This document shows, piece after piece, positions 179 to 57,625 of a stretch of DNA of 64,000 nucleotides. The notes under the pieces are model-generated. The model had not been told where the DNA came from and did no database searches. It worked only from the letters and a program-made list of their open reading frames with translations. Made by a program: the position numbers and the translations under genes. This stretch comes from Strigamia acuminata (taxonomy: Eukaryota). The stretch spans positions 248,001-312,000 of the forward strand of contig OX442314.1 in the NCBI GenBank assembly GCA_949358305.1. Direction: 5' to 3'. How positions within the stretch are numbered: position 1 is the first letter of the stretch; each line of letters starts with the position of its first letter.

Positions 179-347
179 CTGCAACAAGAGAGAAAACAAA
201 TTACGTCCGCCATTTTATTCCCAATTTTTCCAATCACCTGTTGATTTTAGTGTTTGAAAATCGCACATCAGTCGAGATAATATAACTAACGATCTCCTTA
301 TACAGCAATAATAACATTTGGTGTTAATCTCAAAGTCATTTATTTCT

Positions 348-3300
348 TCATTTATTTATTACATTTTGCCGAGAATATTCCCACACAAGCAGCGCTCCGC
401 ACACGTGCACGTTGAGGGAGCGAACGACTCCTCGCTGCGGTATTTGCACGCACGCGTCCAACATTTGAATCAACGAGACCGGAATTCCTTCTTTCTCGTT
501 GCCCAACAGCAGAAGGCACTTTTCAGGAAATTTGTATTCATCCACTCGAACGCTGTCGGCGGTCTGTTCGGCGCCGATCAGGACGTACCCTTGGTTCCTC
601 TTGCTCGTCAAATATTCCTTGAGTTGGAAAGGCTTCACCTCGCACATGGCCACCCATTTCTCGGCAGAAACGCTCAAATTCTGGAACTGTTTGTCCTGGA
701 TGCATTTCATGTTGGCCACCACGTACTCCTTCGCCCCGAAGATTTCGCAGCTCCTGCACAGACCTGCACGACACAAATTCATTTCATTAGTTTGATTAAT
801 TCCATAAATTCCATTAATTCCATTTCACCTCCCAAGTTGGGAATTCTGTCGATGAGTGACGCGACCACGATCAATTCGCCGTTTGACGCGCGTTTGCACG
901 GTGTCATTTTCTTCTGCACGTTCCCGTTTTCCACATTTTCTTCAACTTCAACCTCGACTTGCACGTTTTCTTCTGCAATTCAAATTATTCATTTCCCACG
1001 TTTATTAAAAATGCCAGTACTGACCCGTTTGAAACGCACTCAATTCTTCGTCGCCACTAAACGTGCGAATAAACGAGTTTTCTTCGCTACGAAATTTCGT
1101 AAAAACGTGCGCCGGGATCCACTCGTAATCGGAGACGTCCGTCAACCTCAGAATGTCGTGAAAAATTGTCTAGAAAATAATGAATGAAAATTATTTACTT
1201 ATTTAATTTCTTGATGCCATTGATTGATTTCTAAATCTCACCTGCAAGGAGTAATGTTTGCGAGCATCGAACGCCTTGAAATAGTAATTATCGAAAATTT
1301 TCTGCGTGCAACGCGCCGAATTGCCACCTCGATACGAAAACGTCAAACTGGATTCGACCGGACCGTACATGTCGAGGGCATTTTTCAAATCGTTCGATTC
1401 GCAAATCAGCCACAATTTGTGAAAAACCACCTGCAAGATTTATAAGATTTATAAGATTTATAGACAAATATGTAAAAACTCGTCAACTTGACTTGTGCAG
1501 TGACTCTGGTGTTGAAGTTTTGCGCCATGCACCAGGGAAGGACGCAGCGGAAAGCGGCGAGCACGAATTCTTCTTGTTGCTGTAGCGGTTCCAGCAGTTT
1601 GCCCACGTGGTAGATTATTCCCAGAAACGAACCGATGCTTCCGACTCGGATTCCTGCCGCCTGCAATCAATCCAATTCAATCAAATTATCACAAGTTTCA
1701 ACTTTTTCTTCTGCTACTTTTTCAATTTCGTCCCACAACTCGTCTCTCAAGGTCGCGAATCGAAGCAAAATCCTGACGGCCAGCCATTCCTGCATCACTC
1801 GGATGGACAATTGGGAGCCTTCCTCTACGAGCTGGCCGTAAACATTCTTCAGAACGCCAGTTAACGCTTCCTCGATAATAAAAACAATTCAAAACATTAG
1901 TTAATTTAGACATTATTGATATCCTTCGATTTACTTGAGCGCAAAGTGGTTCCAGGACGAGGATCGTCTGCCAAACTCGATTTTTCTTTAAATGGATCAA
2001 AGAATTTGCATAATAACGAGTGGCCGTTGCACCGACCGCGGCGTCTTGCGCGAGCAACAGCGCGATCAACTCGGCGACCAACGGATGACCACTTTCCAAA
2101 CTCACAATCAACGACACTGCAGCGGCTCGAACGGAAACCTCGTCCAAGTGATCGCTTTCGAACAGGGAGTTGACGGTGCACGTTTCACCGAGCGCGGACA
2201 CAAAAGCGTCCGCATCGCCCTTCACTCTTTGGTCTTTGCGATGGACGGGACCGAACGTGAGCGCGTTCGCCATCAATTGCGCGTGCACGCTCATGTTGCG
2301 GCGCGTGTCTTTCGAGCGCATCCAAACGTCGACGCAGTGGAACACCAACATGTGAAATATCGTCGGACAAGTGTCGGACAACTCGTGCGCTTTTTCGCAA
2401 AACTAGAAAATCAAACAAACTAATGATTAGGAAAAGGATAAATGCAGAAAAAAATTTATTGCACAAAACGCAGAAATGCGTAAAATAAATGCTTCAAATT
2501 GCCATTGTTTCCGAAAAATGGTCACTTTTGCATTTATTTTACGATACGCAATGCAAAAAATCGTAAAATAAACGCATTAATCTCCATGTTTTCGGAAAAT
2601 GCGATTTATGCATTTATTTTGTGTTTATAATTCTCTAACACTTAATAAATTCTTCCATTTTGCAAATTATTAGATTTTTAATGCATAAACATCCTTTCTT
2701 TAATAATGATTGATTTCTTTAACTTGAAAAAATAAATTTACGTGAATTAAAATCGAGTTGGAGGCATTCGGGTGATCGAGCAGCCGCGGGTGAAAAGCCA
2801 CTTGTAGAAATGCCTCGATCGCGATCCAAAAGATTTCCGTTTTCCGTCTTTCAAAGGCCATGTTCCACACGGAGTGCAGCAATTTCCCAAAAAGCTGTTC
2901 GTTTTCGTCAAATACCTAATCCAAAACAAATAATCAACATCATTATAAAGCAAATATTAAATCAAAAATTCACTAGTCACCCGCGACAACGACAAAGATA
3001 AAACGTGTTGGATGCAACGACAAACTGGCGGAATCACGTCCGTGCCGATCTCCAACGTGTACAGCGCAAATTCGATCAAAGCCACGACCTCCAGTTCGTT
3101 GTGACATCGACTCGCGTGAAAAGCCAGACACTTCCAAACGCAATTGTAATACTCCGACACGATTCGGCCTCGTTGTCCCAAATAAACGTCGCAGTTGCTG
3201 AAATTGAATGCAGTTAAATAACAAATAATTAAACTTGAATAATTAATTTACTTGTTGGAAGACGATTTTGTGAGCGTATACTTGAAAAGATTGTTCGTGA

Positions 3301-35700: not shown

Positions 35701-37744
35701 TAGTGGGGAATTCAAGGAAATTATATATTTATATATTTATATCTACCGATTCATAACCAGGTGAAACTCCGCTGCCGATTCGTTCTTCCGCGTCATCATC
35801 GGCTGATCCTTCTTCCATTTCGTCACTAAAACAAAATGAAAACAAAAAAGTCAAAAATAAACCCAAAAAAATTATAAAAATAAAAAATTAACCAAAAAAA
35901 AATGCGAAAAACCAAAAAATAAACCAAAAAAAATTAGAAAAATCAAAAATAAACAAAAAATTAAATTTCCATTGTGAAAATCTACCTGAGATTGTCATCA
36001 TCTTCATCCATATCGACATTTTCAGACGCTAAAAAATCAAAAGTGGCTAGAACCGACGCCTCACTGTCCATCACGGATCCCTCAGCGATCGACTGCGGTA
36101 TCTTCTTAGCCGGAGTCCTAAAACAAACAAAAATTAAACAAAACAAAAAAAATCATCAAAAACAAATTTTTACCGCCTTCCTTGCTGCTCGTTAGCTCGT
36201 TTCCCACTCTGCTCGCCATTCACCACCGCCGCCGTGTTGTGATTCTCTTCATTCTCATCATTATACGAAGTTAAACCCAACAGAGATCGTACACGAGCCG
36301 ATCGCACATCAATTATCGTGTCTGTGTATCCGATTTCCTGCAGGTACCTAAAAAACAAAACAAATAATCAATTTCTAAACATTTTTCCAAATAAAAACCA
36401 CTCACTGTCTTAATAATTGCCTTCCTTGTCGCCAGGTTACGTTACTGTTGGAAGTGAGCATAGTTTCACCGTCTAATGGTTCATCTAAATAAACACACAA
36501 AATTTTACATTTTTTAATTTAATTTAATTTAATTTATACCTTTATTCATTTCGTCAAAACTCGGCGGTTTGATGTCTCCTTGGTTTAGTTCAGTTCCATA
36601 CTTTAATTTATGATATTTAGCTCTGAAAGAAAATTGAAAAAAATTGAAAAAAAATTGAAAAATATTGAAAAAAAATTCGAAAAAATATCAGAAATTAAAA
36701 ATCGATTTACCTTTCTTGTTTGAGTGCATATTCCAGCATTTTTATCCTACGCACTAAATCATTTTTCAAATTTTCTTGTCCCTTTCGTTCTCCCTGTAGA
36801 AAAGCAATCCGCGCCTGGCAAAAATTAAATCACAACAAATTACCAACAAAAATAAGTCCAAACTTTCAGGAAATCATCGACAACAATTTATAGATCAAAA
36901 CCAGCGATTTTTTTTTTTTTTTTTTTTTAAATTTATTTTTTGTGACAAAAATAAATAAATCCAAATTTCATCAATTTATAAATAAATTGATCCATTCGCG
37001 ATAAATTCGCACCTATTTTTGGTCACCAAGTTGAACAAACCCAAAACCCAAAATAAAACCACCACATCCAGCGATTAAACCTCAAAAAAATGCAAACAAA
37101 AAGCAAAAAACAAAAATATTCCTCATTTTTTATCTCCAATAATTTCCAATTTTTTCAATCGATTTCCCACCGATTTCCACCGCCCGCGATCAAAAACGCC
37201 CGAACCAAAACCAAAAACCAACCGATCGAATCGACCGACACTCAATCCTCACAAATTCCCATCCGAAGCGATCGAAAACACACGAAAAACGAGTCGATTC
37301 AATTCGGGTCTTAGGACTCAGCAAACACTCGCCATCTTGAAACTGTGGCAGATTCTTCACCTCTCTCATCACAGAGACACGTTGATATAACACACAAAAA
37401 GCTCACTCACATCGATTTAAACGGGTGGAAATTGCGGGTAGGACGTCGGGGAATGTGTGTGGCGGTTACACGGGTCCGGGAACGGTTTAAACGGCGACGA
37501 AAAAGCGATTTGATTTGACTTGACTTACTTGTAATTCGGCTCGTTCAACTTCCCACTGAGATCTCTCCATCTCAAATCGTGCCCATTCGTGTTGAATAAA
37601 ATGTAGAATCCCCGGGATCGAGTATTGCACTCTTTGATTGTGTTCTTCATGATTCTGCTTACCTCCCACTCCCGGGCCGACTGCTGGCCCGACTTGGCCG
37701 CCGAGATTTTGTGATATACTGATCGGAGTCCCGTCCTCCATCAT
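32766..37744 (-). CDS. STRN: Striatin (STRIPAK scaffold; STRN/STRN3/Cka family)
   Basis: YSIPGILHFIQHEWARFEMERSQWEVERAELQ coiled coil, YLQEIGYTDTIIDVRS and WD40 repeats ending IASAGADALAKVFV*. Start taken at MMEDG. The central exons may be alternative. Confidence 0.92.
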
Positions 37745-38262
37745 TACACGGCCGCCATTACAAAATGCTCCAAGAGCCGCGCGCTGCATTTCGGGACGGA
37801 TCGGCAATGGCGTCATGGACTCAACTCGTATTTTGTAGCAAAAATCGGCTTTTAATTTCACAACATAATTCGTACACATTCGTTAAATTAATTTATAAAA
37901 CATGCAAACAATCGAACGTGAATCTGTCTCGCAAACAGCCATTCTTTTTTGTGCTTCTAAATACAAAATCATGTTAAAAAGGTACATTTTGTTCTATACA
38001 ATGCAATTTCTGCATTTTTCATCAACAAAATACAACAAAATAAAATATTTTTAAACATATTTAAATATATTTACACACATCAAAAGAATTTTTAATTTTT
38101 TAAAACACTTTTTCGAATTTTTTTAAAAAAAAAATTTTGGGTCATTTTGGTGAATTTCGTTAATAAAAAGTGCAAAACGTGCAGAAAAATCATGAAAACA
38201 TAAAATGCATTTAGAGATGATAATTTCTTCGATACTGTCGACATTTTCGACATTTTATTAAC

Positions 38263-38976
38263 TTAAAATTCGATATTTTCATCCATCCTTGGAACAGGAT
38301 TATTCACTAACAGAGATACGATCATGCTGCAAAAACACAAAAAACATTAAAAACCTCGCACAAATCCACGTTACAAACTCAAATCACGCACCAATAGAGA
38401 TAAATAAAGAAGAAAATGAGATAAAATCCTAATTTAATCATCGTTTCTTTCATATGACTTTTGAGCATTCCTCGATTGTGAATCTCAGTCGGATCGTAAA
38501 CTCCAAAATTCCCCGACGGCACCGACCAAAATCTACTCAAAAACAATGAAAAACATCATCACTCGATCCACAAAATGCAAACAAACCTATAAATCTGCCA
38601 AATTAACAGCGGAATATTGCACAAAAACAAAATCCAATAAGCGCCGAGCAGAAGAAACAGCGTTAGAATCCCGTGTGCGATCATTTCGGGTAAAATCCAC
38701 TAAAAAAAAAATATATAAACACGTTAAAATAAAGAACAAAAATTCCTACATATTCATATTTACATAATTTAGTTTTGAGCAACATTGCTGCGCGTTTAGA
38801 TAGTCGCATTCCAAGTCGGATAACGTGATAACCTAGGGTGGTTGAGGTGTCAAATTCGTTCATTTTTCGCGTTTAAAAAACGTTAAAAACACAAAGGATA
38901 CGTAATATACGCTTAAAAACAACAGAGTTCCCGTGTCGAATAGAGAAAATACAAACAAGAGCGTGTCAGAAGCCAT
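38263..38976 (-). CDS. CNIH4: Cornichon homologue 4
   Basis: Five exons spliced by eye: [25 protein letters not shown] / [23 protein letters not shown] / WILPEMIAH... / [34 protein letters not shown] / MIVSLLVN...EF*. Confidence 0.92.
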
Positions 38977-39137
38977 GAATTTACATTTAATTAAACGGCG
39001 TGTTGAGTTTGAGCCGAGATTACGATGACCCAGCTGGAAATAGAACAAATCTCTTTGTAGTTTGTACAACGGGATTCGCGCATCCGTTAACGGTTGCTAG
39101 GTGACGTTCGACGCTTCGTTGTGTGTTTATTTTCAAG

Positions 39138-40257
39138 ATGGAGGAGAAGGAAAAATTGGCGGACAATCAAACGTCGCCGTTGCAAGTGACAATAACATAT
39201 TGGTAAATTAAAAAAAAGAAGAAAAAACAAACTTTTGTTGATTAATTTATTTCTAAATTTCTAAAAGCAGCAGCGCATGAGGTTACAAACTAAAGGTAAC
39301 TTATTAAATAAATTAAATTTAATCAAATTTTTAATATTTTGGTTTATTAAGTATTTTCGAGTCAAGGAATTCCTCGAGAAACTTTTTGGCAAGAAAATTA
39401 GAGTCGTAAGTTAAGATATATTAATAAATATTAAATATTTCTTAATTTTTTTTCAATTTTTTGCAGGAAGGTGACGAAACATCGGGAAAAACTGGATGGT
39501 TTGAAGTCGAAATTGGAAACGAAAAGAAATCAATACATTCGAAAAAAGTTTAAAAAAAATTTAATAAATAAAAATATTCATTTATTATATTTGTTTGTGT
39601 GTTTAGAATGGCGACGGACTCGTAGACTCGTACGAAAAGGAAGCGAAACTGGCGCGTGCGATCGCGGACACGATGCACCTTCCCATGGAGACGGACACGA
39701 TCGAAAGCGCGAGCACGTTTCCGAAAACATCGTCGCTGACCAACCTCCTCCTGCTCGACCTGACCGACCCGGAGAAAGCCTGCGCCGCGCGAAAGATTTC
39801 GTTCGTCCGCAAACTGAGCTCGGACGTGACGGAGACGGTCAAGGAAGCGGTCGAGGCGTCGAGTTCGAAAAAGCCGAGCGAGAAAAACGTGCTCGAGGAG
39901 GAAGAGAAGGACAAGCCGTCGGAAAAACAAGGGCAGGCTTCCGGTTACACGTCGACGTCGGGCAAGAAAACGAGCACGAGCAAGAAATCGCTGACGACGA
40001 CGGAAAAGCGCAAGAAAAAGTCGCAGGACGAGAAGGAGAGCGCGCACAAGAGCGAGAATGTGCGCGACAGCCAGTCGAGTCAGCCGTCGAAGACGATGAA
40101 GTCGGGCGCTTCGGTGTCGGTGTCAGACGACGACGAGTTGTTCGGATCGGCCAGCAGTGGCACGTTGGAAGAGAAAGAGAGCAAGAGTGAGGGCAGTTTT
40201 CAGTCGATCGAGTCGAGAATGTCTTCCGAGTCCGGAAAACGTAAAATGGATTTATAA
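39138..40257 (+). CDS. SELENOW: Selenoprotein W-like (Rdx family, CxxU) with a long C-terminal extension, ~291 aa
   Basis: Exons 39138-39202, 39271-39295, 39352-39405, 39467-39547 and 39607-40257 give VTITYCSAUGYKLKY...GKTGWFEVEI...IHSKKNGDGLVDS...KLARAIA. In-frame TGA at 39278-39280; SECIS downstream. Confidence 0.88.
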
Positions 40258-40270
40258 AGGTGGAGATATT

Positions 40271-40345
40271 ATCTTCTGTCGTGACGAGATTTGTCGAAAA
40301 CTGGTCTTGTACAAGGTGGCAATTCTTTGATGTTTATATGGAGTT
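40271..40345 (+). promoter_or_regulatory. SECIS element (3' UTR)
   Basis: GTGAC (40281), 11-bp stem GAGATTTGTCG/TGGCAATTCTT, unpaired AAAA (40297), apical mini-stem CTTG-TA-CAAG and TGAT (40328). Confidence 0.85.
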
Positions 40346-41030
40346 TATCGTTCACTTTTGTAAAATTTATTGACGTAAAAATAAAAATAGAAATAAGCAT
40401 TCAAAAATAAAAATAATAATTTTAGTTTAAGTGCATTTTAAGTTTAAACAGGAAATGATGTCATTTTGAAGTAAAACACAAAATATTTTAGTTTTATTAT
40501 TATTATTATTATTATGCTTTTGTTCCAGCTGCTCCTCGGCTTTCCATTAAATTAAATTAAATTTGCTTTCCTGCATCACACTAGAGGCGGGATACTGGGA
40601 GTTTACTCTTTTCTCTGCGTGTTGACGATGGAATGATTAAATTTAAAAGCTCACTTAACCTCCTGTATTTCCAGTTCTATATCACAATCATGCATTTTTG
40701 TTAATCACGCATCATCTCCGGCCGCCATCAGCAGAAGCTTGCTGGTTGCGACCGGTCTCGGCTCGGTTGAAAAGCACACAACAATCAATTGCATCGCGCG
40801 CAATTTCAAATTCATCTTTTTCAGCCGTGCAAGTTTTGGCTTTGCGTTTTTATTTTCGAATCTTGCCTAAAAGCCTAAAAGTCTTCTTTTTTCGATGACA
40901 TTTGGCAGCGACTGCCATCCCGTCTAATTTGTAAGTAACAAATCAATCGCGGCAAATATTCTTCCGGTATTTCCGATAACCGAATAAATTTGTGCACAAC
41001 TCCGGTTTGAATTCGCTTTTTTTGTTCGCA

Positions 41031-41495
41031 GAGCTGAGCCGTGATGAATATATTGATTCCTTAATGAAAAAATGAAAAAACGAAGAGAAGAACGATGAAG
41101 CGACGACGATGGAGAAGGTGATGTCGATTTTGGAGGTTTTTCCGGACGCGGATCCCAGATATTTGCGCGGTTTTGTCGAGAAAAACAAGAACGATGTGAA
41201 TTACTTAAACGCGACGGTTTCCGGATGGTTGGAGAGTCGTTATCCGTTACAAACACTTCGGAAACGGAAGGTAAGTCAATGACTCACAAAAGTTAATCAA
41301 TCTCATTTCAAATTGCTTGTCAAGTGTTCTCAATTTTCTAAAAACGAGACTCAACCGGAAACGCGGCGCCGTTCGCAGCTTTACAGCGACAACACCAAGC
41401 TTACGCGCAAGCGCCGATTCCGGTTTTCATCCGAAACCGCCGCAACCAGCCACTGACCACAATTCTGACCACAATTCTCCACCAGCCAAGGAGGT
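41031..41495 (+). pseudogene. RNF216/TRIAD3-like RBR ligase fragment (copy 1)
   Basis: Exon with ILEVFPDADPRYLRGFVEK...WLESRYP (frameshift in the A-run near 41075), joined to a C-terminal piece also found inverted at 60010-60290. Confidence 0.55.
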
Positions 41496-48284: not shown

Positions 48285-48705
48285 TTACCCTCGATCTTTT
48301 GCTTGTTTTTGTTATAATACAATTTAATGTAAAACAATTCGTTGATTTCGGTTGGTATTGGGATATGGTCGTTCTTGAACTTCATTTTCTTGCAAACGAA
48401 TAACGATTTTGTATATAAATGCCGACATGATCTTGATAGAAGATGTTCGTGCTGACATCTTGTTCAGCAAAATATTCCTTCGGATTTGGGAAAACAGCCA
48501 GGAATTCTTTTACAGTGAAATTGCTGCAACAAATAAATAAAATTACCTGTATGCGAAAAAAATTTATTAAAACTTTCTGTTATACCGGTATTATACAAAT
48601 ACCTTTCAACAAATTTCCTCTTTAATGCTGCCTTTTGAACATTCATCTTCATTGGATAGGATTTATTTTGTATCCATTCTTGAATCGATTCGTTCAGAAC
48701 ATTAT
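48285..48705 (-). pseudogene. RNF216-like fragment (copy 3), split by the Gypsy insertion and continuing at 54362-54570
   Basis: Near-copy of 45905-46330. The reading KSQSHD/NVLNESIQEWIQNKSYPM is restored across the insertion site. Confidence 0.55.
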
Positions 48706-51700
48706 TTTTATGTCTACTGAACAGACATATTAAACTTGTGAATTTGTGTTGGAATGTACATTCCAAAGAGACCAAAATAAGAGACGTCTGTTTTGTTTTG
48801 AGTACGACCGTCGTCTGCTTTTATTTTAAAATAACAATGAAGTAATTTTGTACAATGGTTGTTAAGGTGTCGCTATCACTAGGTAAACTAGTAATAGCGA
48901 CATCTCTGGAGTCTCACTAATGTAGTCAACATTCATTCAATTCAATTACAAACATAACATTCGCCCCCACTACATTAGTATCTCTATTTCATCAAAATTC
49001 GAAATATTTCCAACAACTTATCTCTAACAATTTCACCGTTTGCAATTGCACAAACAGTGTATTATTAATTCTAACATCACTATTAATGTTTGCATTTGCT
49101 TTTCTATTTTTTTGTACATTTTATTTCAAATAAATTTCTCATCTTAACTACTACTTCTTGTTTAATTTCGCTTTTCCTGTTTTTCCTGCCAGCGCCTGCG
49201 TCCTCTGCTTCACTCTCGCTCTCCTTAACTCCAGATGACTTCCCGACGCTTCTGGCTCAGTTCCCATCTGTGGTTCTTGAAATGATGTTTCTTGTTCTGT
49301 CTCATCTTGCTCTTCCTGATCTCTAGGGACAAAATACATCATTTCAGCCACTTTCAAACCTTTTTTTCCCCTGGCAATCTTCGGTGTCTGCATTTGTGAT
49401 GTAGGCTGCACTTCTACTTCTTCTATCACTTCTTCGTCATGTTGATTTTCCGTATATGTTCCTGGTTCCTTCCTGGCGCCAGGTCGCAACTCACGAATGG
49501 CACTCAGTGGGTGTACTTCCACAGTCGTTCGTGGTGTCTGCGCCACTTCGGGCGTCTGGAACGCTTCTTCTACAGGAGACTCGGCCTGTTCATTTAGTCC
49601 GTTTCCCGGCTGTTTGGGAGTTTGTGGCGACGCCACATCAACTGCGCCGACGTCCTCCACAGGAACCTGTCCGCGGATCCCAATCACTCGGTGAACTATT
49701 TGGGCCTCATCTCCATCTTCTCCCTCAAAGTCTATTATATCTTGTGTGTCTTTATCGTCAATTTTCGTCTGTCCAGTTATCACCTCACTGCTCCCCCTTG
49801 CGCGTAGATGATTTATGTGTCGTACCACCGTTTTCTGGGTCGCTATGTCTTTGACAACATAAACCACCTCACCTCGCCGTTCCAGAACCACTCCTGGCGA
49901 CCATGGTGGTTTTACTTCTGGGAAAGAGCGGTACCAAACCGGTGTCCCAACGCTCAGCTGTCGGGCTGTCGCGGTGGGTGGTGAAGTCACTTGCTGTGCT
50001 GGTCTCGGCCGCACCAAATCCAAGTGTGTAGTTAGCTCCCTGCCAAGAAATAGGCGCGCAGGAGTTTGATCTCCTTTTCCCTTGAATGACGCGTGCTGGA
50101 GCAGCATTATACGCTGAAGCTTAAGTTCTAAGTCACCTTGCGTGGCCTTTACCAGCTTCTCTTTAATCCAGCGCACCGCGCGTTCGGCTTGCCCGTTGGA
50201 TTATGGGTGCCATGGGGGGGCATATATCTGGTCAATTCCATTCTGTGCCATGAAGTTCTTGAATTCTTGAGAAGTAAATTGGGTGCCATTGTCTGAAACC
50301 AACAAATGTGGCAGCCCGAACGTTGCAAACACGCCGCGAAGAGCTCTTATCGTCGTTGCTGAGGTCGCCGTCGCCATCACTCGTGCCTCGATCCAACCTG
50401 AATGAGCATCTACAATTAAAAGAACCATGTAACGCCCAATTGGGCCAGCGAAATCAATGTGCACGCGAGTCCACGGTCTCTCAGCGCGTGGCCACGCAAT
50501 TGGTATCGCGTGTGGCGGCAAAGCCTTGTTTTGACCGCACATGATACAGTTTTTTACAAATTCCACTATTTCTAAGTTCATCCCGGGCCACCACACGAGG
50601 TGTCTGGCGCGCTGTTTCATTATCACTATGCCAGGATGCCCCTCATGTAAGAGTTTTAGCATCTTCGGCCTTAAGTCCAGTGGGACCACTACACGCTCAC
50701 CCCATAAAATGACCCCACTTAATAATGATAACTCATCAAACTTCACCAAGTAAGCCTTTAACACCGGCGAGGCCGTCAGCAATTGTCTGTCTCCTATTTG
50801 TAACGCCGACACCACCTGTTTCAATATTACGTCGCTCACAGTGGCGTTTGCGATCTGGTCCGCCTTCATCAGGTCTTCCTCCGCCAATTCTGTCAGGAAC
50901 ACGGATGTTTCTTCCTTTTCCTGTTGCGGGGGTTCCTGAGGAAAACGGCTCAGGGCGTCGGCGTTTGAATTGTCCTCGCCTTTCCTGTACCTGAGATCGT
51001 AATCGTATGCAGATAATAACAGTGACCATCTCAAAAGCCTTGGTGAGATGACCTCAGGAATTGGGCGGTCTCTCCCAAATATTCCCAACAACGGCTTGTG
51101 GTCAGTGAATATCACAAAGTGTCTACCTTGCAGGTAAACATTAAACTTTTTGATGGCGAAGATGATCGCCAAGGCTTCCTTGTCCAGGTGGCTGTAGTTC
51201 TGCTCTGCAGAACTGAGCGATCTTGAAGCGTATGCCACCGGTTGTTCGTTTCCTGCATCATCCGGATGGGCCAGCACCGCCCCAACTCCAAAAGGAGATG
51301 CATCAGTGGCCAGTATCAGGGTTTTTCCCAAATTGTAGAATTGCAACACTGGGGCCGTGGTCAACGCTTCTTTAATTGCATCAAAAGCTTTTTGCCGTCT
51401 CCCAGTCCATGCCCACTCTACCTTTACACACAACAATTCGTAAAGAGGTGCCGCCATTTCCGCCAAGTGACTCACAAACACAGAGTAAAAATTAATAATG
51501 CCCAAAAAGGTCCTTAATTCTTTCACATCTCGTGGGGATCCTATCTTGGTCACGGCGTCTATTTTGGAACAAATTGGTAACACTCCATTTTTGTTAATGT
51601 GAAAACCCAAAAAGTCTAAAGCTTCCCTTAACAAACAACATTTTTCTTTCGCTAATCGGAGTCCAACTTCCAACAATTTACTAAAAATTATTTTCAATAC

Positions 51701-54361
51701 CTCCAAATGTTCCTCAACAGACGCCGTGGCTACCAAAATATCGTCCAAGTATATCCAAATCCTTGGCACACCAGCAAGCACTGTCACAATTATGCGTTGA
51801 AATGCCCCCGCCGAGGGCATGGTCCCAAAGGGAAGTCGGGTCACCGCCATCAAACCGCGTGATGTGTTCACTGCGGCCACCTCCGCTGACTCCGGTGCTA
51901 ACGGGATTTGGAGGTAAGCTTGTCTCAAATCTAAAGTGGAGAACCATCTGGCTCCTCCAATCGATGCAAGCAGCTCCGGAATCTTTGGCAGTGGGTAAGG
52001 GTCAGGCTGGAGGACCGGGTTGACCGTACTACGGTAGTCGCCACAAAGGCGTACCGACCCGTCCTTTTTCTGCACATGCACGAGGGGGGTTGCCCAACGC
52101 GAAAATTTTATGGGTTTGAATACCCCCTGTGCAACCAAACGGTCAACCTCACGGTCCACCGCCTGGCGCAACGGCAATGGCACCGGCCTTGGTCTATAAA
52201 ACCTCGGCGTCGCATCCGTCTTCAAAACCAATTCAACTGGTGTTCCAGTGTAAGTCCCCAGCTCCTCGGAGAACACTTCAGAAAATTGATCAATTACCTC
52301 TTCTAAATTATTCCAAATTGTACGTGGGCCTATATCCTCGCGCCCCGCAGTATCTTTCAGAAACTTCACTCACCAACCTCACTTTCCTATCTTTGAACAC
52401 TTCCATCAATGCTGACCACCCAAATCTATCCACTACATCACGCCCAAGTAGGCTGGGGCCAGAACTTGCCACTATCACGAATTCCACATCTCTAGCTATG
52501 TCTTTCACTATACACTTCAAAACCACTGCCCCTAATACCTCAATGGGCCTGCCTTGGTAAGCAAATAATTTTATACGGGTCCCCTTTATGTCTTGTGGTG
52601 TAATTCTATTATTTGCCAATAACAAATCACACATTTTCACATTTAACAAACTCCTTTCACTTCCCGTATCCAATAAAAATGTAAGTTTCTCCCCATTTAA
52701 TGTTACCGGCACCACAACTGGTGGTGAACGTATCTCCTCCTGTGACAGTTGAAACACTGCAAATTCGTCCTCTTCTTCTTGTCGAATTGCATTTACTGGC
52801 ACACGTCTTTGGCGCCAATTCTCTTCACTTTCAACGCCTTTGTCCATCTCGTTCGTCTCACATCCACTAAAATTAGCGGTCTGGTTCGCATCTGGTGGGC
52901 GCCGCCTGTCAAACGAGGTTCTGGGGTTGTACGCCGCGTCATAAGGGCAGTTCCGCAAAAAATGTTGTCCGCCACATCTATAACACGCAATTGGCGTCCC
53001 GTCTCGACGCCACGCCAATCCACCTCTTCCTCGTCCTTGGCCGGGGCGCCCACGTCCTTGTCCGTTACTTATACCATTTGGCGGCACGTCCCGTCTTCCT
53101 GGGAAACCTCGTGCTCTTCCTCGAGCACCGCCGCCTCTGCCTCCCGTCGACGTTTGGAGAACCGCCGCCGCAGGTGTGACCACTCCCGCCGGTCTTTCCG
53201 CCTCCACTATGGGCAACGCATCATCAATCCCTGTGGCTGTTATCGCTGCCACTTCGTGGGCCATTGCTAATTTCAACAGACTGCCCATCTTGATGGGCAT
53301 CTGTACTAAAACCTGCGTCACCAAGGGTGGGTATTTAATGCCGCGGATTACCTGGTCTATTACCGCATTGTCTATTTCCGTACTTGTAGTGAACCCGCAC
53401 TTTTGCGCGAGAACTTTTAAATCATTAATATACTTTTCAACCCCTTCGCCGGTTTTTCGGATCTTGCTTCCTAGCCTCTGCCGATTCATGTAGGGCGTTT
53501 TTAGGGTTTCAAAGTGCGTTTCTATTGCGGCCGTCAACTCCGCTAATGGGGTCGCTGTAACCGACTTCGGATATACCAACCGCTTTAGCTTTTCGTACAA
53601 GGTTGGCCCAATTGTCGTCAAAAATAACGGGACTTGTTTCTCCGCCGTCACATCGTTTAGTTTCACAAACTGTTCGAACCGCTCGAGCCACGACTCCCAG
53701 TCGTGCTGGTTCACACCTGTGAACGGGGGCAGCATCCCCAACATCACTTGGTTCGCGGTAGTCATTATGTGTCTATACAGATGTGGCTGGATTCGAAACT
53801 TGTTCCCTCCAGTCGCGACTAATCAACTGCGTCGATCCACGTCTATCTGTCGTGGAACGTCGTCGCAAAAGTCCGCCAAAAATCAACACGACACGTTTAT
53901 TTCTTTCAAAACAGCAACATGCACGCTTTAACCTTCCCGCAGAAACCGCTTTTCATCAAGTTGTACATCATTTCTTTCGAGTTTTATTGTCCAACTTTCT
54001 CTCTTTTTATCCTCGAATTGTTTTACTCTTTCAGTACAGCTCGTCAACGATTTCCGTTCTCTTCCACGTCAATACAGGCACATCGAAAATCCCATCGTGG
54101 ATACCATTTTTATGTCTACTGAACAGACATATTAAACTTGTGAATTTGTGTTGGAATGTACATTCCAAAGAGACCAAAATAAGAGACGTCTGTTTTGTTT
54201 TGAGTACGACCGTCGTCTGCTTTTATTTTAAAATAACAATGAAATAATTTTGTACAATGGTTGTTAAGGTGTCGCTATCACTAGGTAAACTAGTAATAGC
54301 GACATCTCTGGAGTCTCACTAATGTAGTCAACATTCATTCAATTCAATTACAAACATAACA
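48706..54361 (-). mobile_element. Full-length Ty3/Gypsy (K02A2.6-like) LTR retrotransposon
   Basis: 254-bp LTRs at 48706-48959 and 54108-54361 with one mismatch seen, ATTAT target-site duplication, PBS-like TGGTATCCACGATGGGAT (54089-54106) and purine tract at 48960-48974. Confidence 0.95.
49151..53765 (-). pseudogene. Gypsy gag-pol, disrupted
   Basis: Gag with CYRCGGQHFLRNC, protease LLDTGS, RT YLDDIL, RNase H TDAS and integrase IDFAGP/SDNGTQF. Frame change at ~52308-52369 and a TAA at 50201 inside WHP*SNGQAER. Confidence 0.9.
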
Positions 54362-55450: not shown

Positions 55451-55489
55451 TTTTAAGGCAATTTTAAGCGTTTTATGCAATAACATATT

Positions 55490-57625
55490 GTTTTCTGCAT
55501 TTCGACATTGATACTTTCTCTAATCATTAGTTTATGTTCGATTTTCTAGTTTTGCGAAAAAGCACACGAGTTGTCCGACACTTGTCCGATGATATTTCAC
55601 ATGTTGGTGTTCCACTGCGTCGACGTTTGGATGCGCTCAAAAGACACGCGCCGCAACATGAGTGTGCACGCGCAATTGATGGCGAACGCGCTCGCGTGCG
55701 GTCCCGTCCATCGCAAAGACTAAAGAGTGAAGGGCGATGCGGACGCTTTTGTGTCCGCGCTCGGTGAAACGTGCACCGTCAACTCCGTGTTCGAAAGCGA
55801 TCACTTGGACGAGGTTTCCGTTCGAGCCGCTGCAGTGTCGTTGATTGTGAGTTTGGAAAGTGGTCATCCGTTGGTCGCCGAGTTAATCGCGCTGTTGCTC
55901 GCGCAAGACGCCGCGGTCGGTGCAACGGCGACTCGTTATTACGCAAATTCGCTGATCCATTTAAAGAAAAATCGAGTTTGGCAGACCATACTCGTCCTGG
56001 AACCACTTTGCGCTCAAGTAAATCGAATGATATCAATAATGTTTAAATTAACTAATGTTTGGAATTGTTTTTATTATCGAGGAAGCGTTAACTGGCGTTC
56101 TGAAGAATGTTTACAGCCAGCTCGTAGAGGAAGGCTCCCAATTGTCCATCCGAGTGATGCAAGAATGGCTGGCCGTCAGGATTTTGCTTCGATTCGCGAC
56201 CTTGCGAGACGAGATGTGGGACGAAATTGAAAAAGTAGCGAAAAAGTTGAAACTTGTTGCGATAATTTGATTGAATTGGATTAATTGCAGGCGGCAGGAA
56301 TCCGAGTCGGAAGCATCGGTTCGTTTCTGGGCATAATCTACCACGTGGGCAAACTGCTGGAACCGCAGCAGCGACAAGAAGAATTCGTGCTCGCCGCTTT
56401 CCGCTGCGTCCTTCCCTGGTGCATGGCACAAAACTTCAACACCAGAGTCACTGCACAAGTCAAGTTGACGAGTTTTTACATATTTTGCTGTGAATCTTAT
56501 CCGAGTCACTCTGCTTGCAGGTGGTCTTTCACAAATTGTGGCTGATTTGCGAATCGAACGATTTGAAAAATGCCCTCGACATGTAGTACGGTTCGGTCGA
56601 ATCCAGTTTGACGTTTTCGTATCGAGGTGGCAATTCGCAGAAAATTTTCGATAATTACTATTTCAAGGTGTTCGATGCTCGCAAACATTACTCCATGCAG
56701 GTGCAATTTACACATAATCGATCAGTGCATCGGGAAATAAGTGAAGACAATTTTTCACGACATTCTGAGGTTGACGGACGTCTCCGATTACGAGTGGATC
56801 CCGGCGCACGTTTTTACGAAATTTCGTAGCGAAGAAAACTCGTTTATTCGCACGTTTAATGGCGACGAAGAATTGAGTGCGTTTCAAACGGGTGAGTGGG
56901 TGCTGGCATTTTGAATCAATGTGCGAAACGAATAATCTGAATTGCAGAAGAAAACGTGCAAGTTGAAGTCGAAGTTGAAGAAAACGTGGAAAACAGGAAC
57001 GTGCAGAAGAAAATGACACCGTGCAAACGTGCGTCAAACGGCGAATTGATCGTGGTCGCGTCACTCATCGACAGAATTCCCAACTTGGGAGGTGAAATGG
57101 AATTAATGGAATTTATGGAATTAATCAAACTAATGAAATGAATTTGTGTTGTGCAGGTCTGTGCAGGAGCTGCGAAATCTTCGGGGCGAAGGAATACGTG
57201 GTGGCCAATATGAAATGCACCCAGGACAAACAGTTCCAGAATTTGAGCGTTTCTGCCGAGAAATGGGTGGCCATGTGCGAGGTGAAGCCTTTCCAACTCA
57301 AGGAATATTTGACGAGCAAGAGGAACCAAGGGTACGTCCTGATCGGCGCCGAACAGACCGCCGACAGCGTTCGGGTCGACGAATACAAATTTCCTCCAAA
57401 GTGCCTTCTGCTGTTGGGCAACGAGAAAGAAGGAATTCCGGTCTCGTTGATTCAAATGTTGGACGCGTGCGTGCAAATACCGCAGCGAGGAGTCGTTCGC
57501 TCCCTCAATGTGCACGTGTGCGGAGCGCTGCTTTTGTGGGAATATTCTCGGCAAAATGTAATAAATAAATAAATAAATGATTTTGAGAACAACACCAAAC
57601 CAAACCAAATATTATTTTTGCTGTA
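55490..57625 (+). pseudogene. TARBP1: Inverted partial duplicate of the TARBP1 3' end (with introns)
   Basis: Reverse complement of ~300-2450. CAA>TAA at 55721, a 12-nt deletion near 56637 and a 3-nt insertion near 56585; the SpoU exons are still open. Confidence 0.92.

What the first reader, a model, noticed from the sequence alone, without database searches (positions are those of the whole stretch)
39138..40345. Hidden selenoprotein: SelW-like CxxU domain fused to a ~195-aa charged low-complexity tail, with SECIS
Seen: five exons join into a ~291-aa frame with TGA exactly at the Rdx redox position (YCSA-U-GY) and the GxFEV and IHSKKNGDG motifs. There is no stop after the domain; the frame continues into a Ser/Thr/Lys/Glu-rich tail. 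A well-formed SECIS core starts 24 nt after the stop. Known: SELENOW is ~90 aa and SELENOV has its extension at the N-terminus. Inference: this is an independently extended Sec-containing Rdx protein that standard annotation would truncate or miss. I know of no described SelW with such a C-terminal tail.
Basis: partly seen in the sequence, partly recalled or inferred. Interest (0 to 1): 0.9.

Follow-up and report, generated by a model that had tools for sequence, protein, structure and literature searches.

The report
Centipede selenoprotein W with conserved tail
This gene, likely from a centipede, has a UGA codon at the redox site of a selenoprotein W domain and a matching hairpin after its stop, so it likely makes a selenium protein three times the usual size, whose 194-residue tail is shared with the centipede Strigamia and is predicted to be a floppy docking arm.

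Summary
Confirmed. Five GT-AG exons give a 291-codon frame with TGA at the CxxU site of a SelW1-type Rdx domain, a 194-residue tail and a SECIS-like hairpin 24 nt after the stop. The tail is coding and not private to this genome. Exon 5 finds one relative, Strigamia maritima T1IWN8, collinear to the end: domain 51/67, linker 29/50 and distal tail 63/144 identical, with 0 of 1000 shuffles reaching the score. The published Strigamia selenoproteome lists only SelW2a (a different 90-aa protein) and an empty SelW2b row. No paper on this form in 10 searches, and no earlier scan note on similar DNA. Against: no RNA data; the SECIS is below Rfam's cut-off; a half-depth contig deletes the stop and SECIS; an unrelated tail exists on a snake SelW. 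Most likely a Sec oxidoreductase with a phospho-regulated disordered docking arm, the mirror image of SELENOV; tail function is inferred only. New variant of a known kind.

The parts
39138..39202 (+). Coding exon 1 (ATG to the first two bases of the Cys codon of CxxU); holds an in-frame alternative donor at 39186 equivalent to the one the Strigamia model appears to use
   Evidence: mammalian SelW exon 1 also ends just before CxxU (PMC3316567, passage)
39265..39273 (+). Triple tandem acceptor of intron 1; the middle one gives CxxU, the others CxxxU and CxU
   Evidence: profile scores 88.5 / 83.3 / 82.9 bits
39271..39295 (+). Exon 2 (25 nt) carrying the Sec codon
39278..39280 (+). In-frame TGA, codon 25, at the U of CxxU (predicted selenocysteine)
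   Evidence: aligns to the redox position of a profile from 12 relatives
39352..39405 (+). Exon 3 (54 nt), Rdx helix 1; 16 of 18 residues identical to Strigamia
39467..39547 (+). Exon 4 (81 nt), GWFEV and IHSKK motifs; 21 of 27 identical to Strigamia
   Evidence: TIGR02174 E 0.002; Pfam Rdx E 0.17
39607..39672 (+). Exon 5, end of the Rdx domain (residues 76-97)
39673..39822 (+). Exon 5, conserved linker (residues 98-147): predicted helices, a Leu-rich stretch and two basic-basic-x-Ser motifs; 29 of 50 identical to Strigamia
39823..40254 (+). Exon 5, distal S/K/E/T-rich tail (residues 148-291), predicted disordered; 63 of 144 identical to Strigamia, with conserved short blocks
40255..40257 (+). 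Stop codon TAA
40273..40343 (+). SECIS-like element: core 40281-40285 / 40328-40331, helix II 40286-40296 / 40317-40327, apical A's from 40297; 825 nt from the UGA in the spliced RNA
40380..40411 (+). Two AATAAA polyadenylation-signal candidates (40380, 40406)

Best explanation
The five exons form one 291-codon frame for a SelW1-type Rdx domain plus a 194-residue tail that is conserved in the centipede Strigamia; the UGA is likely read as selenocysteine through the 3' hairpin, and the tail is predicted to be a phosphorylation-controlled, mostly disordered docking arm that would place the redox domain on its partners. Shown: frame, motifs, hairpin, homology along the whole tail, coding-type base composition. 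Inferred from family knowledge: SBP2/eEFSec recoding of UGA25, and a Cys22-Sec25 selenenylsulfide that exchanges with client cysteines as in mammalian SELENOW (which binds 14-3-3 at Cys191 through its Sec; PMC8508763, abstract read). Inferred and untested: the helical linker packs beside the domain, its two conserved basic-basic-x-Ser motifs (residues 137-146) are PKA-type sites, and the basic patch (209-213) and acidic Ser-Asp block (246-251) set localisation or partner binding. Likely origin: loss of the ancestral stop and extension of the frame up to the SECIS, before this lineage split from Strigamia. My odds: real Sec gene with translated tail about 0.85; tail as a regulatory docking arm about 0.5 given that.
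For: Splice sites and AT-rich introns. Intron 1 falls where mammalian SelW exon 1 ends (PMC3316567 passage), and exon 3 begins at the residue aligned to mouse SelW residue 19. The CxxU splice form scores 88.5 bits against a profile of 12 relatives, the exon-2-skipping form 63.6. The Strigamia domain matches mouse SelW 2NPB at E 1.1e-8. Tail homology: linker score 123 against shuffles 22.8 +/- 4.6, distal tail 213 against 93.4 +/- 9.4, 0 of 1000 each. Third-position GC is 0.82 and 0.77 in linker and tail against 0.60-0.67 in three other window exons and 0.31 overall in the 3' UTR; no 50-nt stretch of exon 5 is under 40% GC, so no hidden intron of this genome's type. Both coding variants seen in run X2 (2 of 2) are synonymous. 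Contigs of both DNA runs show no stop after the domain. The AlphaFold model of the Strigamia protein has a confident domain and first linker helix and pLDDT under 50 over most of residues 138-336. [quoted passage not shown]
Against: No RNA evidence for any junction. SECIS below Rfam's cut-off and not the lowest-energy fold; the Strigamia SECIS could not be compared. Sec machinery was not checked in this genome (no assembly held). One short contig in each DNA run, at about half depth, joins 40028 to 40334 and would remove residues 217-291, the stop and the SECIS core. The window's domain has a longer branch than Strigamia's (0.48 against 0.16, 74 columns, weak). No canonical 14-3-3 motif, no CaaX, and the PP1-type RVxF match is not kept in Strigamia. 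Short kinase motifs arise by chance in S/K-rich sequence. Only two sequences define the family.
Confidence: 0.65

Rival explanations
1. Same long selenoprotein, but the tail is a structural or tissue-specific (for example sperm) element rather than a signalling arm: a centipede counterpart of testis-restricted SELENOV.
For: Same domain subtype plus a long low-complexity extension, as in SELENOV (exon-1 extension averaging 261 residues, least conserved mammalian selenoprotein, testis-expressed; PMC3316567 passage). The Strigamia tail carries an extra repeated S/T/K/E block, as fast-evolving structural proteins often do (own knowledge).
Against: No expression data. No Pro-rich character or Cys for cross-linking in the distal tail (composition). 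Analogy only.
Confidence: 0.15
2. The main transcript skips the Sec exon (donor 39186 joined to exon 3), as in the UniProt Strigamia model, giving a 277-aa protein without a redox site; the TGA exon and hairpin are relics.
For: T1IWN8 has exactly this form; the alternative donor is in frame and matches the consensus as well as two of the four real donors (6 of 9).
Against: Loses the first strand and CxxU and 25 bits of profile score. Exon 2 has the strongest donor of the gene (8 of 9), flanked by AT-rich introns; the motif and a SECIS-like hairpin are intact. Automatic gene models are known to avoid in-frame TGA (PMC13134290, start of abstract).
Confidence: 0.07
3. The gene is dispensable or decaying in this species: a null allele lacking the stop and SECIS is segregating, and selection is relaxed.
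For: Half-depth contig joining 40028 to 40334 in 2 of 2 runs; longer domain branch; SELENOW and SELENOV knockout mice are viable (PMC13437758 passage).
Against: The main allele is intact in both runs and 2 of 2 coding variants are synonymous. The depth of the X2 contig over the deleted part (320.6) is higher than a simple heterozygous deletion would give, so the short contig may be a partial copy elsewhere. Both runs belong to one study and may be one animal.
Confidence: 0.08
4. An ordinary ~97-aa SelW whose tail is an unselected read-through, a retained 3' UTR or a second gene fused by mis-assembly.
For: Low complexity; no family match for the tail in Pfam, NCBIfam or the Atlas; 70 other SelW relatives end a median 30 residues after the HSKK-like motif.
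Against: Collinear conservation with Strigamia far beyond shuffles; codon-position bias; one contig of X1 spans 38500-40373 without differences and X2 spans 38500-39854; an independent species has the same fusion.
Confidence: 0.05

Closest known systems
SELENOW / SelW1 (Rdx family, Pfam PF10262, TIGR02174; mouse structure PDB 2NPB)
   Same: CxxU near the N-terminus, GxFEV and HSKKxGDG motifs, 3' SECIS, five coding exons with intron 1 just at the CxxU Cys; nearest named relatives are SelW1-type proteins of fish, Daphnia, cnidarians and tetrapods.
   Different: 291 instead of about 85-100 aa; 220 residues from the HSKK motif to the end against a median of 30 in 70 relatives; SECIS in the stop-codon exon, whereas mammalian SelW has it in a separate exon 6 (PMC3316567, section 14).
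Strigamia maritima T1IWN8 (UniProt, uncharacterised, 346 aa)
   Same: Likely orthologue: sister in the domain tree (SH-aLRT 96), same linker and tail blocks.
   Different: Database model lacks the 14 residues with CxxU; its tail has about 60 extra repeated residues.
SELENOV (placental mammals)
   Same: SelW1-type domain plus a long, poorly conserved extension of 200-300 residues.
   Different: Extension is N-terminal and in exon 1 in SELENOV, C-terminal and in exon 5 here; SELENOV arose in placental mammals (PMC3316567, PMC13134290), so the two are not orthologous.
SelW2 / MIEN1 (Rdx12), including the published Strigamia SelW2a
   Same: Rdx fold with CxxU/C.
   Different: Published SelW2a is a different 90-aa sequence with the FSK...GGFP type of motif (seen, compared by eye); no CaaX end here. 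The SelW2b row has no sequence, so it cannot be excluded that this name was given to the same locus.
Squamate SelW-like proteins with a C-terminal tail (Pseudonaja textilis XP_026580452.1; Paroedura picta XP_077180766.1)
   Same: SelW1-type domain followed by a charged low-complexity tail; models start after the Sec position.
   Different: Tail about 90 aa or less, K/E/P-rich, no similarity to this tail (194 and 148 of 300 shuffles score as well); separate clade in the domain tree.

Membership tests
Rdx family (SelW/SelT/SelH/SelV) | N-terminal CxxU/C motif after the first strand | tested here: met
   C22-S-A-TGA25 aligns to the redox site of a 12-sequence profile
Rdx family (SelW/SelT/SelH/SelV) | GxFEI/V motif and profile match | tested here: met
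   GWFEV in exon 4. Own profile gives 88.5 bits. Library scans were possible only on pieces: T1IWN8 without CxxU gives TIGR02174 32.3 bits (cut-off 34.2) and Pfam Rdx 18.2 (cut-off 22.6)
Rdx family (SelW/SelT/SelH/SelV) | Thioredoxin-like fold | tested here: inconclusive
   Only the Strigamia model lacking strand 1 was folded; best PDB match is mouse SelW, probability 0.96 but E 0.095; Atlas nearest structure is a SelW cluster
Eukaryotic selenoprotein | SECIS in the 3' UTR with GA/GA quartet and apical AA, more than about 110 nt from the UGA | tested here: met
   Quartet, 11-bp helix, apical A's, 825 nt spacing; criteria from PMC3316567 section 14; Rfam score sub-threshold
Eukaryotic selenoprotein | Sec/Cys pairing: relatives with Sec or Cys at the TGA position | tested here: inconclusive
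   12 of 12 relatives that keep the N-terminal motif show W there, most likely TGA read as Trp by gene callers (inference); the Strigamia codon could not be seen
Eukaryotic selenoprotein | Sec machinery in the same genome | not testable with these tools
   No assembly held; no tRNA in the window; complete in Strigamia
Eukaryotic selenoprotein | Selenium incorporated at the UGA | not testable with these tools
   needs 75Se labelling, MS or a reporter
SELENOW1 subtype | HSKKxGDGxVD motif and conserved intron positions | tested here: met
   intron 1 position from PMC3316567; human exon sizes of 25 and 54 nt, equal to exons 2 and 3 here, are recalled and were not found in print
SELENOW1 subtype | Small single-domain protein of about 10 kDa | tested here: not met
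   291 aa with a conserved 194-aa tail
SELENOV | Long N-terminal extension in exon 1; placental mammals | tested here: not met
   Exon 1 encodes only 21 residues; the extension is C-terminal
SELENOV | Testis-restricted expression | not testable with these tools
   no RNA holder listed
MIEN1/Rdx12 | C-terminal CaaX box | tested here: not met
   (the CaaX feature of MIEN1 is recalled)

The most novel reading that the evidence does not exclude
Centipedes evolved their own long selenoprotein W, a mirror image of mammalian SELENOV, that is missing from the published centipede selenoproteome. Together with the unrelated squamate tail, it shows that SelW1 domains have gained long disordered arms at least three times, and these arms give the Sec site a dedicated location or client set (for example in sperm or a phospho-signalling complex).
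Probability: 0.35. Interest if true: 0.75.

Novelty: new variant of a known kind. Interest (0 to 1): 0.58.

Why it matters
It adds a domain architecture to a small, well-studied selenoprotein family and likely adds a gene to, or corrects a gene in, the reference myriapod selenoproteome and UniProt. The role of SELENOV's extension is still unclear; an independently extended SelW with conserved motifs in its tail gives a second system in which to ask what such arms do. It does not change how Sec recoding works.

Tried and rejected
RNA evidence: no RNA holder listed, so junctions are untested. No whole genome held. Exon 4 alone found no PDB sequence. Word-index searches with the Strigamia domain and linker found only itself among 198 candidates of 190-606 aa and nothing among 42 candidates under 190 aa; proteins over 606 aa were not searched this way. 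Metagenome scans: 596 pattern matches, none a relative; 23 motif matches, none a relative by tblastn (best E 0.87). Atlas search with the linker: no usable hit. Pfam and NCBIfam give the tail only compositional matches, E above 0.2. No tandem repeat in the window's tail. The bacterial promoter/terminator scan is not applicable to an animal gene and was ignored. No second full copy in the window. A complex prediction with 14-3-3 was not sent: no animal 14-3-3 sequence was on hand and phosphorylation is not modelled. The spliced protein itself was scored only with a home-built profile, not with the family libraries or structure prediction. The deletion contig could not be looked at more closely, so allele versus partial copy is open. 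Searches had off-by-one coordinates, corrected. Literature: 10 searches found no description of a C-terminally extended SelW or of T1IWN8. The library lacks most subscription papers, including the 2016 book chapter on arthropod selenoproteins cited in PMC13134290; the supplementary file of that paper was cut when stored and its tree figures give no sequences.

Full report
Observation. The region holds five coding exons on the + strand (39138-39202, 39271-39295, 39352-39405, 39467-39547, 39607-40257) separated by GT-AG introns of 68, 56, 61 and 59 nt that are 11-18% GC. Joined, they give 291 codons with a single in-frame TGA at codon 25 in Y-C-S-A-U-G-Y and a TAA at 40255-40257. A SECIS-like hairpin follows: core at 40281 (24 nt after the stop), 10 of 11 pairs in helix II, apical A's, second half of the quartet at 40328-40331, 825 nt from the UGA in the spliced RNA. 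A simple SECIS pattern hit 3 sites in 128 kb of both strands, two of them identical copies in a repeat, and 3 of 2000 shuffles of the 3' region; the pattern was written after seeing the site. Rfam SECIS_1 places its match exactly here but at 19 bits, below the cut-off of 35, and the unconstrained fold prefers another hairpin.

The domain. A profile built from the 12 relatives that keep the N-terminal motif scores the CxxU splice form 88.5 bits, the two neighbouring acceptors 83.3 and 82.9, and an exon-2-skipping form 63.6. All 12 show W at the Sec position, which I take to be TGA read as Trp by gene callers (inference). The Strigamia domain matches mouse SelW (2NPB) at E 1.1e-8. Nine of ten of the strongest hits looked up carry a source record, most of them named selenoprotein W, from fish, Daphnia, a toad and a coral. 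Mammalian SelW exon 1 ends just before CxxU (PMC3316567, passages), as here, and exon 3 starts at the residue aligned to mouse residue 19. The equal sizes of exons 2 and 3 in human SELENOW are recalled, not checked. This is a SelW1-type gene.

The tail is real and shared. Exon 5 found 1 relative among 699 candidates: Strigamia maritima T1IWN8, 346 aa, E 2e-23. Identity by segment is 16/18, 21/27 and 14/22 in the domain, 29/50 in the linker and 63/144 in the distal tail; neither linker nor tail score was reached by any of 1000 composition-preserving shuffles. Third-position GC is 0.82 and 0.77 in linker and tail, like other exons of the window (0.60-0.67) and unlike introns or the 3' UTR. Codon usage favours this frame (0.73 against 0.46-0.71; the mirror frame on the other strand comes close), and no intron-like AT-rich stretch lies in exon 5. 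Contigs of two DNA runs cover the domain-tail junction without a stop; of five differences listed between 39138 and 40345 in X2, two are intronic, one is in the UTR and two are synonymous. X1 may be the source of the window and both runs are from one study, so this is not independent support. From the identity with Strigamia I infer that the window is from a centipede.

Annotation status. T1IWN8 lacks exactly window residues 17-30, which is what splicing from the in-frame donor at 39186 to exon 3 would give: the model avoids the TGA exon. The Strigamia genome paper (PMC4244043; passages, Table S26 and selenoprotein rows of Table S30 read) reports 20 selenoproteins and the full Sec machinery. 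Its two W-family entries are SelW2a, a different 90-aa protein, and SelW2b, whose row has no sequence; a 10-residue motif of T1IWN8 occurs 0 times in that table. So the long form is either absent from that catalogue or hidden under SelW2b without comment. The 2026 survey (PMC13134290, section 14 and passages read; supplement cut) mentions no C-terminal extension. PMC3473315 and PMC7539508 (passages) describe UxxU SelW and fusions in other families, none like this. No paper holds 'T1IWN8'. The scan's own notes hold nothing on this sequence or genome, only bacterial SelW rescues and unrelated cases.

How unusual. A full HMMER scan of 1.84 billion representatives with the Strigamia domain plus linker gave 90 hits; apart from T1IWN8 itself none of the other 89 extends beyond query residue 89 of 117. 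In the 70 other hits with an HSKK-like motif the chain ends a median 30 residues after it (range 26-140; 14 exceed 45), against 220 here and 284 in Strigamia. I tested 13 of the longer C-termini (10 of those 14 plus 3 others) against this tail: none was similar (11 to 284 of 300 shuffles scored as well, against 0 of 300 for Strigamia). One is a 158-aa snake model with a charged tail of about 90 aa, which groups apart from the centipede pair in a weakly resolved 74-column tree of 72 of 97 sequences. Few myriapod proteomes are public (own knowledge), so the range of the tail beyond two species is unknown.

Mechanism. Family knowledge gives the first steps: recoding of UGA by SECIS, SBP2 and eEFSec, and thiol exchange by the Cys-x-x-Sec site; mammalian SELENOW engages Cys191 of 14-3-3 through Sec (PMC8508763, abstract). 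The AlphaFold model of the Strigamia protein is confident over the domain and the first linker helix (block pLDDT mostly 84-94, then 77), shows two linker helices, and is disordered beyond residue 138 (170 of 346 residues under 50). Conserved within the extension are a Leu-rich stretch, two basic-basic-x-Ser motifs at 137-146, a Ser-Gly-Tyr-Thr-Ser block, a basic patch, and a nine-residue block followed by an acidic run. Islands of conservation in a disordered chain are typical of docking and phosphorylation motifs, so I favour a regulated docking or localisation arm. This step is untested: no canonical 14-3-3 or CaaX motif is present and such short motifs arise by chance. A SELENOV-like tissue-specific role is the main alternative. 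The SECIS lying only 24 nt past the stop, in the same exon, fits extension of the frame through an old 3' UTR (inference).

Results against. No RNA data. Weak SECIS score. One short contig in each run (depth 42.4 and 177, against 75.6 and 320-365 for the main contigs) joins 40028 to 40334 with 33 other letters between; it would end the frame within ten codons and remove the SECIS core, leaving the UGA as a stop. It may be a null allele or a partial copy, and it is unresolved. The window's domain branch is three times Strigamia's.

Verdict. A real, conserved, C-terminally extended SelW1-type gene, very likely a selenoprotein, mis-modelled in the one public relative and not found in print by my searches. 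It works like SELENOW and is built like a reversed SELENOV, but it fails SELENOW's size criterion and SELENOV's defining extension, so it is a new variant of a known kind. Interest 0.58.

Noticed in passing
window 39265-39273: Three tandem acceptors before the Sec exon would give CxxxU, CxxU or CxU; alternative use could retune or switch off the redox motif without touching the frame.
   Followed up: partly
window 40029-40333: A half-depth contig in both DNA runs lacks this stretch (tail end, stop, SECIS core) and has a 33-letter insertion made of short local repeats, as in end-joining repair; null allele or partial copy.
   Followed up: partly
proteins P0063 (XP_026580452.1, Pseudonaja textilis) and P0055 (XP_077180766.1, Paroedura picta): A divergent squamate SelW-like clade (SH-aLRT 98 with P0086), models starting after the Sec site; the snake member has a K/E/P-rich C-terminal tail of about 90 aa. 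Possibly an undescribed reptile paralogue.
   Followed up: partly
proteins P0031, P0085 (unnamed), P0002 (Bulinus truncatus KAH9489531.1): Two SelW-type proteins end in a shared hydrophobic helix, a possible membrane anchor; the snail model has two Rdx domains in tandem.
   Followed up: no
window 48704-54361: LTR-retrotransposon-like element on the minus strand: long gag- and pol-like ORFs (49151-53822, named from recalled motifs) between two 256-nt repeats 99.6% identical, so probably a recent insertion; the repeats hold a SECIS look-alike at 48738 and 54140.
   Followed up: no
window 317-2471 and 55468-57599: Inverted duplicate, 92.6% identical over 2.2 kb, of the 3' part of a gene whose C-terminus looks like a SpoU-type tRNA methyltransferase (TARBP1-like; name recalled).
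   Followed up: no
window 37490-37882 (-) and 41109-41267 (+): Neighbours: a striatin gene head-to-head about 1.2 kb upstream (Pfam E 7.5e-13) and a CUE-domain gene downstream (E 0.0095); useful for synteny checks in other myriapods.
   Followed up: partly
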